Virus record (IMG/VR): IMGVR_UViG_3300036790_000261
Location: 24,725-88,724 of that record
DNA length: 64,000 bases
Direction: 5' to 3' (one strand)
Source: a virus
Taxonomy: Duplodnaviria > Heunggongvirae > Uroviricota > Caudoviricetes
Shown here one piece after another: positions 30,899-56,383 of the stretch; the stretch's first letter is position 1; every line of letters begins with the position of its first letter. The position numbers and the translations under genes are program-made. The notes beneath the pieces were generated by a model. It ran no database searches. It was not told where the DNA came from and saw nothing but the letters and a program-made list of their open reading frames with translations.

Positions 30899-31384
30899 TC
30901 ACTGCTTTCCTTCCTCCGGCTTCGCGTGACGGGCCGGGGGCGTTTCCTGCTTGGCCGCACGCTTCCGCCGGGCTTCCTCCCGGTCCCGGCGAACAGAGTC
31001 GGCGTGCTTGATCCGGCCGCCTGCCTGCCTGCCGAGCTTGCGGGCCAGGTTCTCCAGGGCCCGCTTGACCGCGATCGCGGTGCCGGTCTCCGGGTCGTAC
31101 TCGTCGGCGTTGTCCCGCTTGGACCAGCCGGTCGCCGTCATGATCGCCGGCCCGTACCCGTCAGCAGACAGGGTTGCCCGTGCCACAGTCGCGTGCGGGT
31201 CGGTGAGAACCTGCACCTGTACGAGAACCGACTCAGGAACGCCCGCCTGGACAGGAAAAGGCACAGGCACGGGCGGGTACGACGGCAGCTGGTACTGACC
31301 CTGCGGGGCCATCGGGGCGAAGATGCCCGGCTGTTGTTTCTTTGGCTTGTTCACACTTGTCACTTTCGTTTCGAGCAGGGGCAT
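30899..31384 (-). CDS. hypothetical protein with a basic C-terminal tail
   Basis: The ATG (MPLLETK) overlaps the end of the upstream Cys-rich mini-gene. High GC3. Confidence 0.5.
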   Translation of the reverse strand: MPLLETKVTSVNKPKKQQPGIFAPMAPQGQYQLPSYPPVPVPFPVQAGVPESVLVQVQVLTDPHATVARATLSADGYGPAIMTATGWSKRDNADEYDPETGTAIAVKRALENLARKLGRQAGGRIKHADSVRRDREEARRKRAAKQETPPARHAKPEEGKQ

Positions 31385-31509
31385 TCCGGGCAGCGGCACG
31401 TGCACGGCGGCAGGCACACGCAGGGAGAGTACGTATAGACAGGGCCGCTGCCGCCCGCCCCCGAGCGCACGTTCACCGGGACTTGGTCACAGCACTTGTC
31501 GTCGTCCAC
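31360..31509 (-). CDS. tiny Cys-rich metallothionein-like peptide (49 aa, 11 Cys)
   Basis: MDDDKCCDQ...SPCVCLPPCTCRCPECPCSKRK. The GTG overlaps the TAG of the SPFH gene (TAGTG). High GC3. Confidence 0.4.
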   Translation of the reverse strand: MDDDKCCDQVPVNVRSGAGGSGPVYTYSPCVCLPPCTCRCPECPCSKRK

Positions 31510-32447
31510 TACTTGCCCGCTGAGGCCGTCGGGATGACGATGCCCGACCCGCTGCCGGGCCAGCAGGAGCCGCCTGCCGGGACTGTGATCTGCCCGGCAG
31601 CCCAGGCGCTCATGCACTGCTGCACGAGGACCAGCGGGTTGTTGGCCAGGTTCTGCTCAAGCAGCTTGTTAGCTGCCGCCTGGGCAGATGCCGTCTTCTC
31701 TGCCTCGGTGGCAACGACTGTCTTGGCTGCCTGGTTGGTGGCCGCGTTGATCTGGTTCTGCACGGTGGTGTCGTAGGTCAGGGGCTTGAGGTTGAGGGTC
31801 GCGATGTTGATGTCACTGCCGACCCGTCCCTTCAGCGCTGTCTCGATCAGGCCACCTAGCTGGACTGTGCTCGGATTAGTCGGGCTGCCGGCCTTCGCGC
31901 CTGTGGCAAGCGGGGTGATCGGGTCGTACCCGTCGAGCACGGTGTTGGTGGCGGCGTTCAGCTCCGGGTCTAGCAACCCGCTCTGCAGGCCGGCTGTCGT
32001 CTTGTAGTTCGCGAAGATGTCGTCGGCCGCAGGGACGGCAGCGTTCCACCGAACCTGGACCGTTGCCTGCGCGGTCTGGCCGCCGGCAATGCGGACTGTG
32101 AACGTCTCGTCGGTCAGCTGGTAGCTGTCGTCGATGGTGGTGACGTTGTCCCAGGGCGCAGTCAGGTCGGGCCCTGGACCCTCGTGCCCGGCAAGCGCGC
32201 CGAACGACGTGACGATCCCGATGTCCCGGGTGCCGACGATGTTGAACGAGCTGACAAACACCAGCAGGCAGGTGAAGGCGGCGCAGGAGACAGCGAGGCC
32301 GAATGCCCAGGCATGCACGAGAGCGCCATCGGCCAGGCCACCGCGGGACGTCCTCTTGCCCTTCTCCGAGTGGCTGAGCCGCGCTAGAACAGCGAAGCCG
32401 ACTGTGAACGCCGCGACGATGATCGCGAAGGTGAAAATTCCTGACAC
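31509..32447 (-). CDS. SPFH/band-7 (stomatin/prohibitin-like) membrane protein
   Basis: Two N-terminal TM helices, then the SPFH core IVGTRDIGIVTSFGALAGHEGPGPD...TVRIAGGQTAQATVQVRW. Confidence 0.65.
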   Translation of the reverse strand: MSGIFTFAIIVAAFTVGFAVLARLSHSEKGKRTSRGGLADGALVHAWAFGLAVSCAAFTCLLVFVSSFNIVGTRDIGIVTSFGALAGHEGPGPDLTAPWDNVTTIDDSYQLTDETFTVRIAGGQTAQATVQVRWNAAVPAADDIFANYKTTAGLQSGLLDPELNAATNTVLDGYDPITPLATGAKAGSPTNPSTVQLGGLIETALKGRVGSDINIATLNLKPLTYDTTVQNQINAATNQAAKTVVATEAEKTASAQAAANKLLEQNLANNPLVLVQQCMSAWAAGQITVPAGGSCWPGSGSGIVIPTASAGK

Positions 32448-32561
32448 GCAGGACTCACTTCCTGTTTTCGGGGGTGTGCATGCCTGATCTTAACTTACGT
32501 CGCACAGTAGGTATTCCGTTACCTCCGCTGGAATGTCGGGGTCCCTCGCTAAGCTGGCCGC

Positions 32562-32981
32562 ATGACAAGTGTGGACAGGGCAATCGCCGACGCGCTGACT
32601 GCCGAGTACCAGGGGCGGACCCAGCTGACCGGCCAGCCTGAGGTCGTCATCGTGGACGTACCGCCGGAGAGCAAGCTAGAGCAGCTGCTGTGCCTGGAGG
32701 AGAAGCTGCGCAGCGCGCACGAGGCGGCCGACGCCAACTGGGACGAGTGGAAGAAGGCGGTCAGCGGCGAGCTCGGCAGGCTGTACCCCGGTGAGGCCGC
32801 CCCGACCAAGGCATTCGAGATCACCGGCGGCCCGATGTGGAAGGCGCTGACGGTCAGCTGGCGCAACGGCAAGGAGTACCTGCCGACCACCCTGATCAAG
32901 CAGCACATCCCGCAGGTGTGGAACGCGTTCAAGAAGACGTCCGCGGGATACTGGGACATCAGGCGAAAGGGCAAGCGGTGA
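32562..32981 (+). CDS. hypothetical protein
   Basis: ATG start, high GC3. Confidence 0.5.
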   Translation: MTSVDRAIADALTAEYQGRTQLTGQPEVVIVDVPPESKLEQLLCLEEKLRSAHEAADANWDEWKKAVSGELGRLYPGEAAPTKAFEITGGPMWKALTVSWRNGKEYLPTTLIKQHIPQVWNAFKKTSAGYWDIRRKGKR

Positions 32982-33166
32982 GCCTGTCTAACGTCTGGGC
33001 CGAGGATCTCGACGACGTGTCCCTGACCTTCCTGTACCGCATCCTGAACCGGATGATCGAGAACGGGCACAGGGGGCTTGAATCAAAAAGCGAGCAGGAC
33101 ATCGCATGGGCGGTCAAGCATGAGTACGAGGAGCGGGCTGCGCTACCAGACACGCGGGTGTTCTAG
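32978..33166 (+). CDS. hypothetical small protein (62 aa)
   Basis: The GTG overlaps the upstream TGA. It is coupled to the downstream ATG through a TAGATG overlap. Confidence 0.4.
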   Translation: MSLSNVWAEDLDDVSLTFLYRILNRMIENGHRGLESKSEQDIAWAVKHEYEERAALPDTRVF

Positions 33167-55794: not shown

Positions 55795-55987
55795 CCGGGT
55801 CTCCTTTCAGTAGCGGGTACACAGCGGTCCCGAGTAGCGCGGTCAGGGTAAGTACAGCCAGCAGCGCGGTCCACCAGGACGGGGACAGGGCGCAGGCGAC
55901 CGCGAGCAGCGGGAGGTAGAACACCGGGAACAGGATCAGGAACACGCCGCGGAGGCAGAACGCGAGCACCCGCAGCCTGTCCCGCAC
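55691..55987 (-). CDS. small membrane protein. The 3' part overlaps 55438..55794 and may be the wrong frame.
   Basis: The N-terminal roughly 65 aa are hydrophobic with high GC3. The tail overlaps the next gene by 104 nt. Confidence 0.35.
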   Translation of the reverse strand: MRDRLRVLAFCLRGVFLILFPVFYLPLLAVACALSPSWWTALLAVLTLTALLGTAVYPLLKGDPDATRVEPGRPGEGHAVPAHPGEDQVAAQRPAAER

Positions 55988-55997
55988 GCTTTCCCCC

Positions 55998-56126
55998 TTA
56001 CCGGCTGCAGACGGGGCAGGCCGCCGAGATGCACATGAGCCCCCGGCACCCGTACCACCGCTGGTCGTCAGCTGACCACCAGCGGTGCCCTGGATGACAG
56101 GTTTCCTTAGTGCACTGCTGCTGCAT
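55998..56126 (-). CDS. tiny Cys-rich peptide (42 aa, 7 Cys)
   Basis: MQQQCTKETCHPGHRWWSADDQRWYGCRGLMCISAACPVCSR. The ATG overlaps the TGA of the upstream mini-gene. Confidence 0.4.
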   Translation of the reverse strand: MQQQCTKETCHPGHRWWSADDQRWYGCRGLMCISAACPVCSR

Positions 56127-56230
56127 CAGTGCCCCCCGTGGACCGCGTTGACGACTGTGTTCGTGATGACGCAGGCCAGCAGGACCAGCACGGCCACGGT
56201 GAACAGCCATGAGCTTCCGTTAAGCTTCAC
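56126..56230 (-). CDS. tiny membrane peptide (34 aa)
   Basis: GGGAAGAAGAAAC then GTGAAG, the same start context as the Cys-rich peptides. Hydrophobic. Confidence 0.35.
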   Translation of the reverse strand: MKLNGSSWLFTVAVLVLLACVITNTVVNAVHGGH

Positions 56231-56248
56231 GTTTCTTCTTCCCTGTAC

Positions 56249-56383
56249 CTAGCAGCTGTCGTGGCAGTTGGTGTTATGCGTCCCGCAGTGCTTGCCCGCC
56301 CGCTTGTCGCAGCAGTTGCACGTGCACTTACCCCCCAGGGTGCAATGGGCCTTGTCCCCCTCGGGCTTGGACGTTACGCTCAC
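56249..56383 (-). CDS. tiny Cys-rich metallothionein-like peptide (44 aa, 9 Cys)
   Basis: MSVTSKPEGDKAHCTLGGKCTCNCCDKRAGKHCGTHNTNCHDSC. Shine-Dalgarno GAGGAGGAAGAGGC then GTGAG. Confidence 0.45.
   Translation of the reverse strand: MSVTSKPEGDKAHCTLGGKCTCNCCDKRAGKHCGTHNTNCHDSC

What the first reader, a model, noticed from the sequence alone, without database searches (positions are those of the whole stretch)
31360..56383. A family of tiny (42-49 aa) Cys-rich metallothionein-like peptides with near-identical translation-initiation contexts, all on the reverse strand
Five mini-ORFs are at 31360..31509, 51957..52091, 52108..52248, 55998..56126 and 56249..56383. They carry 7-11 Cys in CC, CxC and CxCxC patterns typical of metallothioneins (for example MymT-like copper binders) rather than CxxC zinc ribbons. 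Four of them share the start context GGAGGAA(G/A)A(G/A)..GTGAG, and two are tandem with only 16 nt between them. They are interleaved with tRNA genes and a 34-aa hydrophobic peptide (56126..56230) with the same start context. All fall below the 60-aa ORF cutoff and would be missed by default gene callers. Phage-encoded metallothionein-like or disulfide-rich peptide families are not something I recognise as described.
Basis: partly seen in the sequence, partly recalled or inferred. Interest (0 to 1): 0.7.

Follow-up and report, generated by a model that had tools for sequence, protein, structure and literature searches.

The report
Cysteine-rich mini-proteins of a soil phage
A 122-kb soil phage carries several real but mostly unannotated genes for 42-49-residue peptides packed with cysteine; two of them belong to a previously undescribed family (8 Cys + 3 His at fixed spacing), repeated up to seven times in related phages, that probably folds around metal ions, but its role is unknown.

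Summary
All five mini-ORFs exist at the stated coordinates. They sit on the minus strand of a tailed-phage genome binned with a Trebonia (Actinomycetota) MAG. They are very likely genes, but not one family.

- **Family A (52108-52248 and 56249-56383):** these two are paralogs. The motif is C-x4-5-C-x-C-x-C-x0-2-C-x5-10-HC-x2-H-x3-CH-x2-C. Eight Cys and three His are invariant or nearly so in 25 sequences. The family is found only on syntenic ~115-123-kb phage-like metagenome contigs. There it lies just 3' of tRNA genes and forms tandem arrays of up to seven copies.
- **Family B (31360-31509):** this peptide shares a nine-Cys pattern with peptides of two related phages.
- **Orphans (51957-52091 and 55998-56126):** no relative was found.

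No peptide matches Pfam, NCBIfam, PHROGs or PDB sequences, including metallothioneins. AlphaFold gives no confident fold.

The shared GGAGGAA..GTG start context holds for three of the five ORFs, and it is simply this genome's general ribosome-binding consensus. Only one of the five is annotated publicly.

Best reading: cytoplasmic mini-proteins folded around Zn or Cu, metallothionein-like in chemistry but not in ancestry. Their role, metal handling or a scaffold for binding host targets, is unresolved. The finding is real and new as a family, and the mechanism is inferred.

The parts
56249..56383 (-). Family A mini-protein, 44 aa, 8 Cys + 4 His (MSVTSKPEGDKAHCTLGGKCTCNCCDKRAGKHCGTHNTNCHDSC). 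It starts 58 nt 3' of tRNA-Met, with SD GGAGGAAGAGGC before the GTG.
   Evidence: A 93%-identical ortholog, P0001, occurs on 77 contigs. Between window and ortholog the core has 5 synonymous and 1 non-synonymous codon changes. Annotated as HEY1700805.1. Family HMM score 47.7 bits.
52108..52248 (-). Family A mini-protein, 46 aa, 8 Cys + 3 His (MREISGSNGSCPYKGSCKCGCAECKARGAKRFDHCGMHSNDCHLEC). It starts 53 nt 3' of tRNA-Gln, with SD GGAGGAAAAC before the GTG.
   Evidence: Paralog of 56249 (E 4e-6). P0002 is a positional ortholog at the same slot in another phage contig. HMM score 46.0 bits. Not in public protein collections.
51957..52091 (-). Orphan Cys-rich ORF, 44 aa, 10 Cys (MSDPVCKNCGCTHGNYGPGCCGCTCRSTDGSGRCPCCGTQRVER). 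It lies 16 nt after the previous gene, with SD GGAGGAAGAGC before the GTG, and ends 55 nt before tRNA-Thr.
   Evidence: No homolog in related loci, IMG/VR or JGI metagenomes. Coding status rests on the SD, GC3 0.80 and 10/10 TGC codons.
55998..56126 (-). Orphan ORF, 42 aa, 6 Cys, 3 Trp (MQQQCTKETCHPGHRWWSADDQRWYGCRGLMCISAACPVCSR). Its ATG overlaps the stop of the hydrophobic ORF (TGATG).
   Evidence: Absent from the close relatives L001-L010. No homolog found.
31360..31509 (-). Family B mini-protein, 49 aa, 9 Cys (CC-x22-C-x-C-x3-C-x-C-x-C-x2-C-x-C). Its GTG overlaps the stop of the Band_7 gene (TAGTG), and its stop overlaps the GTG of the Rv2632c-like gene (GTGA).
   Evidence: The same nine-Cys pattern occurs in L021/L022 (MKNTGRGSCCEATVSTIQCTCPASCTCTCIMCPCSKG) and in L012. 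Not annotated and not in protein collections.
56126..56230 (-). Hydrophobic 34-aa peptide ending HGGH. In this window and in its close relatives (L001-L010) it is immediately followed by a Cys-rich ORF.
   Evidence: Between 59% and 65% identical in L001-L010 depending on the search, where it precedes the family A gene.
55691..55987 (-). Putative small membrane protein (98-aa ORF; its C-terminal part overlaps the next gene). It follows 55998-56126 after 10 nt.
   Evidence: 40% identical ORF directly after the family A gene in L020. Only weak holin-like and DUF Pfam hits below cut-off. Not annotated.
56442..56517 (-). tRNA-Met (CAT), directly upstream of the family A gene.
   Evidence: The same tRNA-Met to family A arrangement occurs in L012, L019 and L023; in L001 the hydrophobic ORF lies between them.
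52302..52375 (-). tRNA-Gln (CTG), directly upstream of the tandem pair.
51829..51901 (-). tRNA-Thr (GGT), directly downstream of the tandem pair.
30792..30902 (-). Possible sixth Cys-rich ORF, 36 aa, 7 Cys (MTSRMRRSRRRGCTMCLICSYCVNRGCTVHSLSCVC). SD GGAGGAAGGAAAGCA before the GTG; GTGA overlap with the upstream gene.
   Evidence: No homolog. It lies between convergent genes. Weak candidate.
46695..46796 (+). Possible divergent family-A-like domain on the other strand (MTPGRKCSCGCPPCRRGEHLLCPDGHSGGCHVYC). SD GAGGAGGAAGCTGCG before the GTG. There is no nearby in-frame stop, and the codon-position signal moves to another frame near 46830.
   Evidence: The HMM domain score is only 12.5 bits. The segment is absent from L001 relatives.

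Best explanation
The ORFs are genuine small genes of a ~122-kb tailed phage of a soil actinomycete.

**Expression (inferred).** They are expressed from the leftward small-gene and tRNA region, probably on the same transcripts as the tRNAs. Translation starts from strong Shine-Dalgarno sites or by stop-start coupling.

**Products (inferred).** The products are 42-49 residues long, have no signal peptide and so stay in the cytoplasm. There, dense thiols and imidazoles at fixed spacing are expected to coordinate metal ions: Zn(II) most likely, Cu(I) possible. The peptide would fold around a small metal-thiolate/His cluster. This makes them metallothionein-like in chemistry and architecture, but evolutionarily unrelated to known metallothioneins.

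**Family A (shown).** It has 8 Cys + 3 His, a conserved Gly and a basic D-K-R loop. Its scaffold is rigid and its surface residues vary. It is tandemly amplified and swapped as ORF-precise cassettes between related phages.

**Role (inferred, my leaning).** I think family A most likely serves as a metal-stabilised scaffold that binds host targets during takeover or counter-defence. The His-free CxC/CC peptides (31360 and 51957) fit simple metal or thiol buffering better.

**Shown versus inferred.** Shown: the genes exist, are conserved, amplified and tRNA-linked. Inferred: translation, metal binding and role.
For: **Phage context**
- Tape measure and head-tail adaptor hits; DNA polymerase A, DUF5906 and an SNF2 helicase nearby.
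- Sister contigs are 115-123 kb long.

**Coding evidence**
- SD or translational coupling, GC3 0.80-0.91, and 39 of 41 Cys codons TGC.
- The family A ortholog is 94% identical in DNA while its flanks are 77-86% identical. The core has 5 synonymous and 1 non-synonymous codon changes.
- Hits at E 2e-13 and 7e-10 in searches of 5.8 and 1.8 billion proteins, all to 38-59-aa proteins apart from one 171-aa repetitive protein set aside as probably spurious.

**Ligand-only conservation**
- In 25 family A sequences only Cys and His are invariant or nearly so; Gly and Asn positions are conserved in most sequences.
- In family B only the nine Cys are invariant.
- AlphaFold2 without metals gives pLDDT 54 and no secondary structure, which is at least compatible with a metal-dependent fold.

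**Amplification and turnover**
- Seven tandem copies in L021/L022 and at least five in L023.
- Between tRNA-Gln and tRNA-Thr the coding sequences are replaced exactly from start codon to stop codon, while flanks stay 87-92% identical.
- Gene order is swapped relative to the hydrophobic ORF.

**Accessory-region neighbourhood**
- tRNAs, a Y-RNA-like element, and FxSxx-COOH-type peptides in relatives. The latter are linked to actinobacterial conflict systems in PMC7159879.
Against: - There is no experimental or expression data, and the phage is known only from metagenomes.
- No homology to any metal-binding family, and no confident structure.
- The alignment used for AlphaFold2 was shallow (13 sequences), so its failure is weak evidence.
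- Two of the five ORFs have no relatives at all and could be non-functional.
- The L012 copy of family B lacks a canonical start codon.
- Several unrelated Cys-rich peptide types in one genome argue for selection on thiol chemistry itself. This favours the buffering role over the specific-binder role I lean to for family A.
- Fe-S cluster binding or disulfide formation after lysis cannot be excluded.
Confidence: 0.5

Rival explanations
1. True metallothioneins in the physiological sense. The peptides would be metal sponges that buffer or sequester Zn or Cu in the infected cell, for example protecting phage replication in metal-rich acidic soil or starving host enzymes. Tandem copies would act as gene dosage.
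For: - 14-23% Cys with CC, CxC and CxCxC motifs.
- Family A has 11 ligands (8 Cys + 3 His), numerically like the Zn4Cys9His2 cluster of bacterial SmtA (own knowledge).
- Tandem amplification.
- At least three unrelated Cys-rich types in one genome.
- No predicted fold without metal.
Against: - No similarity to any metallothionein family or solved structure.
- Family A has rigid spacing and conserved non-ligand Gly, Asn and D-K-R residues, and often an aromatic residue after the first Cys.
- 55998 is Trp-rich.
- No metal-transport or metal-sensing genes appear among the annotated neighbours.
- The cassette turnover resembles accessory host-interaction genes.
Confidence: 0.22
2. Precursors of modified or disulfide-rich peptides. 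They would be RiPP-like substrates of host maturases, or peptides that oxidise after lysis and act outside the cell as toxins or signals.
For: - Size and Cys density resemble ranthipeptide/SCIFF-type or knottin-like peptides (own knowledge).
- Relatives encode an FxSxx-COOH-type peptide right after the family A gene.
- A hydrophobic peptide and a small membrane protein are adjacent.
Against: - No radical-SAM, lanthipeptide or YcaO-type maturase among the Pfam-annotated genes of the window and relatives.
- No signal peptide.
- The conservation pattern is the reverse of a RiPP precursor: the N-terminus is variable and the Cys/His core is invariant.
- Invariant His fits metal ligation better than thioether or disulfide chemistry.
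Confidence: 0.1
3. Regulatory short ORFs. Ribosome pausing at Cys codons would sense cysteine or Cys-tRNA supply and control downstream genes, as in the mycobacterial polycysteine attenuators. The peptide itself would be irrelevant.
For: - Actinobacterial hosts use polycysteine short ORFs as cysteine-responsive attenuators (10.1101/834739).
- The ORFs lead or sit within polycistronic units next to tRNAs.
Against: - The described attenuators are leaderless with a contiguous Cys tract and precede cysteine-metabolism genes. Here the ORFs have SD sites and dispersed Cys at fixed spacing, and no cysteine genes are nearby.
- His, Gly and spacing are conserved at the protein level across 25 homologs, with synonymous change.
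- 51957 is followed by a tRNA, not by a gene.
Confidence: 0.06
4. Some of the ORFs, namely the orphans 51957 and 55998 and perhaps 31360, are chance or decaying ORFs in intergenic spacers and are not functional genes.
For: - No homologs for 51957 and 55998 in any search.
- Close relatives lack them.
- Cys-rich out-of-frame ORFs are common in this high-GC DNA.
- The L012 family B copy has no canonical start.
Against: - Consensus SD at the correct distance, or exact stop-start overlaps.
- GC3 of 0.80-0.82 and TGC bias.
- Composition is unlike the Arg/Ser/Pro/Ala-rich shadow ORFs.
- They fill otherwise empty gaps in tightly packed operons.
- The related phage fills the same slot with another small Cys/His ORF behind the same SD.
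- This rival cannot apply to family A.
Confidence: 0.12

Closest known systems
Bacterial metallothioneins (SmtA/BmtA family; mycobacterial MymT)
   Same: Small size, high Cys content, and CxC/CC motifs. Family A has 8 Cys + 3 His, close in ligand number to the Zn4Cys9His2 cluster of SmtA (own knowledge). There is no stable fold prediction without metal.
   Different: No sequence similarity to any metallothionein model or solved structure. The genes are phage-encoded, tandemly amplified and tRNA-linked. The core is shorter (~31 residues). Metal binding is untested.
Fungal Cu(I)-thioneins (Neurospora/Agaricus type, CxCx5CxCx3CxCx2C)
   Same: Family B (CxCx3CxCxCx2CxC) and 51957 have the same kind of His-free, alternating CxC pattern (comparison from memory).
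   Different: No homology can be shown, the source organism is different, and function is untested.
Small zinc-ribbon / zinc-knuckle proteins common in phage genomes
   Same: Short cytoplasmic Cys-containing proteins of unknown role. This genome has ordinary examples at 34996-35088, 49463-49576 and 50179-50304.
   Different: Those have two CxxC pairs, giving 4 ligands. The peptides here have 6-11 ligands in CC/CxC arrangement and are not CxxC ribbons, except partly 55998.
Polycysteine leaderless short ORFs of mycobacteria (cysteine-responsive attenuators; 10.1101/834739)
   Same: Unannotated Cys-rich short ORFs in an actinobacterial setting.
   Different: Here the ORFs are SD-led, the Cys are dispersed with conserved spacing, the protein sequence is conserved, and there is no link to cysteine metabolism.

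Membership tests
Metallothionein (class definition) | Low molecular mass and high Cys content with CC/CxC/CxxC motifs | tested here: met
   42-49 aa; 6-10 Cys (14-23%). CC, CxC and CxCxC motifs occur in four of the five; 55998 has only CxxxxC and CxxC.
Metallothionein (class definition) | Few or no aromatic residues and little His | tested here: inconclusive
   Family A has 3 invariant His and often W/Y/F after the first Cys. 55998 has 3 Trp + 1 Tyr. 51957 has 1 Tyr and 1 His, and 31360 has 2 Tyr.
Metallothionein (class definition) | Metal-thiolate clusters shown spectroscopically or by stoichiometry | not testable with these tools
   Needs purified peptide plus native MS, ICP-MS and UV or NMR spectroscopy.
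Known metallothionein sequence families (SmtA/BmtA, MymT, eukaryotic families) | Detectable sequence or profile similarity to a recognised family | tested here: not met
   No Pfam, NCBIfam or PHROG family at E <= 10 apart from one insignificant PHROG hit of unknown function (E 0.27) for 31360. No PDB chain matches the family A or B profiles at E <= 10. The only hit for 51957 is a spider toxin at E 0.12.
Zinc ribbon (two CxxC knuckles) | Two CxxC/CxxH pairs separated by a beta-hairpin-forming spacer | tested here: not met
   Family A, family B and 51957 lack paired CxxC knuckles. 55998 has one CxxC plus one Cx4C.
Polycysteine attenuator short ORFs (10.1101/834739) | Leaderless start, contiguous Cys tract, and a position upstream of cysteine-metabolism genes | tested here: not met
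   SD-led or translationally coupled. Cys are dispersed. Neighbours are tRNAs and phage genes.
RiPP precursors (e.g. SCIFF/ranthipeptides, lanthipeptides) | Conserved leader with a variable core, and a cognate maturase gene nearby | tested here: not met
   The N-terminus is variable and the core invariant. No maturase-type Pfam domain occurs among called genes of the window or relatives. Host-encoded maturases cannot be excluded.
New family A (defined here) | C-x4-5-C-x-C-x-C-x0-2-C-x5-10-H-C-x2-H-x3-C-H-x2-C in a 33-59-aa protein, located in the tRNA/DUF7873 region of ~120-kb actinophage-like genomes | tested here: met
   52108-52248 and 56249-56383 score 46.0 and 47.7 bits against the 25-sequence HMM. 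Motif shown. Synteny shown.

The most novel reading that the evidence does not exclude
These would be the first virus-encoded metal-cluster (metallothionein-type) mini-proteins. Family A would be a phage-specific 8-Cys/3-His scaffold, tandemly amplified and shuffled as ORF-precise cassettes behind tRNA genes. The phage would use it to rewire host metal or thiol homeostasis, or as a diversifying metal-stabilised binder against host defence systems, within an accessory island that also holds tRNAs, a Y-RNA-like RNA and, in relatives, FxSxx-COOH decoy-like peptides.
Probability: 0.25. Interest if true: 0.75.

Novelty: new variant of a known kind. Interest (0 to 1): 0.55.

Why it matters
If the peptides bind metal, they would extend metal-thiolate mini-proteins to viruses. 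They would also offer a compact 31-residue Cys8His3 scaffold for study and engineering.

The amplification and cassette exchange next to tRNA genes point to an accessory module under rapid turnover in large soil actinophages. Such modules are the kind of place where host-takeover and counter-defence functions tend to be found.

The finding also shows concretely how much small-gene content is missing from annotations. Four of the five ORFs are in no public protein set.

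Tried and rejected
**Searches that found nothing**
- Megablast of both regions against 50,697 phage records: no match.
- tblastn of the family A peptides against phages: only noise.
- Family searches: Pfam, PHROGs and NCBIfam gave nothing apart from one insignificant PHROG hit (E 0.27) for 31360. 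PDB sequence searches gave only insignificant hits (E >= 0.11).
- The family B profile found nothing in the 5.8-billion-protein set or in IMG/VR.
- Degenerate DNA patterns for 51957 and 55998 found nothing in IMG/VR.
- The 51957 pattern gave only out-of-frame noise in JGI metagenomes.
- The family A pattern is absent from 185,579 species-representative genomes and present on a single IMG/VR contig.

**Structure**
- AlphaFold2 on the 13-sequence family A alignment gave pLDDT 54. I therefore did not run fold searches, which would be meaningless, and I left the second structure job unused.

**Variation**
- The extra contigs L026 and L057 turned out to be 100% identical to the window, so they carry no variation.
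- L021 versus L022 and L019 versus L020 are also identical in the arrays. The only ortholog-level test of selection is therefore window versus P0001.
- DNA for P0002 could not be fetched.

**Readings rejected**
- One homologous family of five.
- A family-specific start context.
- Coding on the opposite strand.
- WhiB-like proteins, because the Cys pattern and the size do not fit.

Full report
**What the window is.**
- The 64-kb window is 66% G+C and has no close relative among 50,697 deposited phage genomes.
- Exact protein look-ups place it on contig DASXDZ010000073.1 (122,349 bp) of assembly GCA_036490375.1, a MAG labelled Trebonia sp. (Actinomycetota, Streptosporangiales). A JGI metagenome contig of 122,178 bp is identical over the 10.8 kb I could compare.
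- It is a tailed-phage genome. It has a tape-measure protein and a head-tail adaptor, giant Gly-rich/Laminin_G tail proteins, and an SNF2 helicase. DNA polymerase A and a DUF5906 primase-helicase appear among the called genes of its close relatives.
- Sister contigs of 115-123 kb occur in several soil metagenomes.
- Host assignment rests only on binning.

**The observation.**
They are 49, 44, 46, 42 and 44 codons long, with 9, 10, 8, 6 and 8 Cys.
- The 16-nt spacer between 52108-52248 and 51957-52091 is confirmed. So are the hydrophobic 34-codon ORF and the three same-strand tRNA genes (Thr, Gln, Met).
- GC3 is 0.80-0.91 and 39 of 41 Cys codons are TGC, as in the phage's long genes.
- The shared start context holds for three Cys ORFs and loosely for the hydrophobic one. 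ORFs 31360 and 55998 instead overlap the preceding stop codon (TAGTG, TGATG).
- The same GGAGGA plus spacer plus GTG/ATG arrangement precedes many ordinary genes of this genome. It argues for translation, not for common descent.
- Cys-rich ORFs as such are not rare in this DNA: 27 of 536 ORFs of 25-110 codons have at least 6 Cys. Nearly all of these are Arg/Ser/Pro/Ala-rich out-of-frame shadows of real genes. The five are not shadows. They fill gaps between genes.

**Not one family.**
- ORFs 52108 and 56249 are paralogs (BLASTP E 4e-6). Profile comparisons of this pair's family with 51957, with 55998 and with the 31360 family are all negative, and the BLASTP pair 51957/31360 is insignificant (E 1.2).
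- I therefore treat them as family A (two members), family B (31360) and two orphans.

**Family A is real, conserved and lineage-restricted.**
- A profile of the two paralogs found a 41-aa protein that is 93% identical to 56249 and lies on 77 contigs.
- A full HMMER pass over 1.84 billion cluster representatives found eight proteins at E <= 1e-3. A word-indexed search of 5.8 billion found eleven clusters.
- All are 38-59 residues, all come from metagenomes, and none is named. The exception is one 171-aa repetitive protein that matches only part of the motif and lacks most of the Cys; I set it aside as probably spurious.
- In an alignment of 25 sequences, which includes copies read directly from related loci, the only invariant or near-invariant positions are eight Cys and three His. 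Gly and Asn positions are conserved in most sequences. The motif is C-x4-5-C-x-C-x-C-x0-2-C-x5-10-H-C-x2-H-x3-C-H-x2-C.
- Against its closest ortholog, the gene at 56249 is 94% identical in DNA, while flanking DNA is 77-86% identical. Its Cys/His core shows five synonymous and one conservative codon change, and the N-terminal tail diverges.
- The opposite-strand alternative fails. The + strand ORF there runs through the tRNA-Gln gene and has GC3 near 0.5.

**Genomic setting of family A.**
- Every contig carrying a family A gene that I could inspect is syntenic with the window. The shared landmarks are a ~340-aa phrog_5931-type protein, a DUF7873 protein and a convergent 283-296-aa gene.
- The gene lies a few to about sixty bases 3' of a tRNA gene (Met, Ser or Gln), or follows another family A gene.
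- Copy number varies strongly: two in the window, one in the closest relatives, seven in tandem in L021/L022, and at least five in L023.
- A shorter related type (CxCxCx2C...HC...GC) accompanies them in relatives.
- Turnover is cassette-like. Between tRNA-Gln and tRNA-Thr, similarity to the close relatives (87-92% in the flanks) stops exactly at the start codon of 52108 and resumes at the stop codon of 51957. The relatives carry a different 50-codon Cys/His ORF behind the same Shine-Dalgarno site.
- After tRNA-Met, the relatives have the hydrophobic ORF first and the family A gene second. They lack 55998 and the adjacent membrane-protein ORF.
- The family A pattern was not found in 185,579 species-representative genomes, and was found on only one of 2.9 million IMG/VR contigs.

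**Family B and the orphans.**
- The peptide at 31360 lies between a Band_7/SPFH gene and an Rv2632c-like gene, coupled to both by overlapping stop and start codons.
- Its nine-Cys pattern (CC...CxCx3CxCxCx2CxC, then SK) recurs in small ORFs just upstream of the DUF7873 gene in L021/L022 and L012. The L012 copy has no canonical start codon.
- None of the family B peptides is in the protein collections.
- ORFs 51957 and 55998 have no relative anywhere I could search. Their coding status rests on SD or coupling, codon bias and position.
- Publicly, only 56249 is annotated, as a hypothetical protein. The other four, the hydrophobic ORF and the 98-codon membrane ORF are absent from a 15-billion-sequence collection.

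**What they probably are.**
- None of the peptides matches any Pfam, NCBIfam or PHROG family or PDB sequence at permissive thresholds. This includes every solved metallothionein.
- AlphaFold2 on the family A alignment gives pLDDT 54 with no secondary structure.
- A protein whose only conserved residues are 11 potential ligands at rigid spacing, that has no signal peptide, and that shows no metal-free fold is best explained as folding around a metal cluster. Zn(II) is most likely and Cu(I) possible. This is inference, not observation.
- In chemistry this is metallothionein-like. In ancestry it is not a member of any metallothionein family.

**Which role.** I see two live options.
- For family A I lean to a metal-stabilised scaffold that binds host targets. 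The reasons are its rigid spacing, its conserved Gly and basic loop, its variable surface residues, its tandem diversification, and its cassette exchange in a region that also holds tRNAs, a Y-RNA-like element and, in relatives, FxSxx-COOH-type peptides. Those peptides are tied to actinobacterial conflict systems in PMC7159879.
- The presence of several unrelated Cys-rich types in one genome points the other way, toward selection on thiol chemistry itself. That would mean metal or redox buffering, and it suits family B and 51957.
- Weaker rivals are RiPP or secreted-peptide precursors and cysteine-sensing regulatory ORFs of the mycobacterial polycysteine kind (10.1101/834739). Against them: no maturase is present, there is no leader/core pattern, the starts are SD-led, the Cys are dispersed, and conservation is at the protein level.

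**Verdict.**
The interpretation as 'a family of metallothionein-like peptides' is partly right in chemistry and wrong in detail.
- The novelty lies in an undescribed, phage-restricted Cys8His3 mini-protein family with tandem amplification and tRNA linkage.
- Function is unproven, so I score interest as moderate.

Noticed in passing
window 52399-52504 (-): A tRNA-like split element between the 53-aa gene and tRNA-Gln matches the Rfam YrlA (Y RNA-like) model over its full length. The score is 36.3 bits, below the gathering score of 69, with E 2e-6 to 2e-5. T-arm-like and D-arm-like parts are preserved. The element is conserved in L001 and recognisable in L012. No Ro/Rsr-type gene was seen nearby.
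   Followed up: partly
L012 3963-4091; L023 5162-5299: In two related phages the family A gene is followed by a 42-45-aa peptide ending FQSSV-COOH. The copy in L023 carries a precomputed Pfam PF27839 (FxSxx-COOH) hit. Such peptides are linked to actinobacterial conflict systems (PMC7159879). The local Pfam and NCBIfam copies did not reproduce the hit, and the window has no such ORF.
   Followed up: partly
window 53768-53964 and 55155-55430: Arrays with a 38-nt period in which GCCGGGGCG and GCCCCGGCG alternate, giving successive 8-nt G+C-rich inverted repeats with ~30-nt spacers. They lie in the two ORF-poor stretches of the small-gene region. The same motif is visible upstream of the DUF7873 gene in L001, and G+C-rich motifs of a similar look occur there in L015 and L019. 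A near-perfect 25-nt hairpin lies at 54982-55048.
   Followed up: no
window 51959-52246 versus L001 13823-13969: ORF-precise cassette replacement. Similarity between the two phages (87-92% in the flanks) ends at the start codon and resumes at the stop codon. The relative carries a single different 50-aa Cys/His ORF (MSTTCGDTSGGSGSDGHTHRCADDKDHRGGHICGVMSNQGRGAVCNYTWF).
   Followed up: partly
window 30792-30902 (-): A 36-codon ORF with 7 Cys, a strong SD (GGAGGAAGGAAAGCA GTG) and a GTGA overlap with the Rv2632c-like gene. It could be a sixth Cys-rich peptide. It has no homologs and lies between convergent genes.
   Followed up: partly
window 46695-46796 (+), continuing to 47222: A family-A-like motif (CSCGCPPCRRGEHLLCPDGHSGGCHVYC) behind a consensus SD on the + strand. 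There is no nearby in-frame stop, and the GC3 signal switches to the frame of the annotated 109-aa gene near 46830. This could be a frameshifted fusion or an overlapping gene. The whole segment is absent from L001 relatives.
   Followed up: partly
window 30020-30784 (-): The 254-codon minus-strand ORF is most likely the antisense shadow of two + strand membrane-protein genes (29979-30365 and 30362-30727), which are the ones annotated at NCBI. It is an example of long false ORFs in this high-GC genome.
   Followed up: yes
L012 5801-5953: The family B homolog in this relative keeps an open frame and all nine Cys but has no ATG, GTG or TTG start. An ACG sits where the start is expected, behind the SD-like GGAAGGAAAG. 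It may use a non-canonical start or be a recent pseudogene.
   Followed up: no
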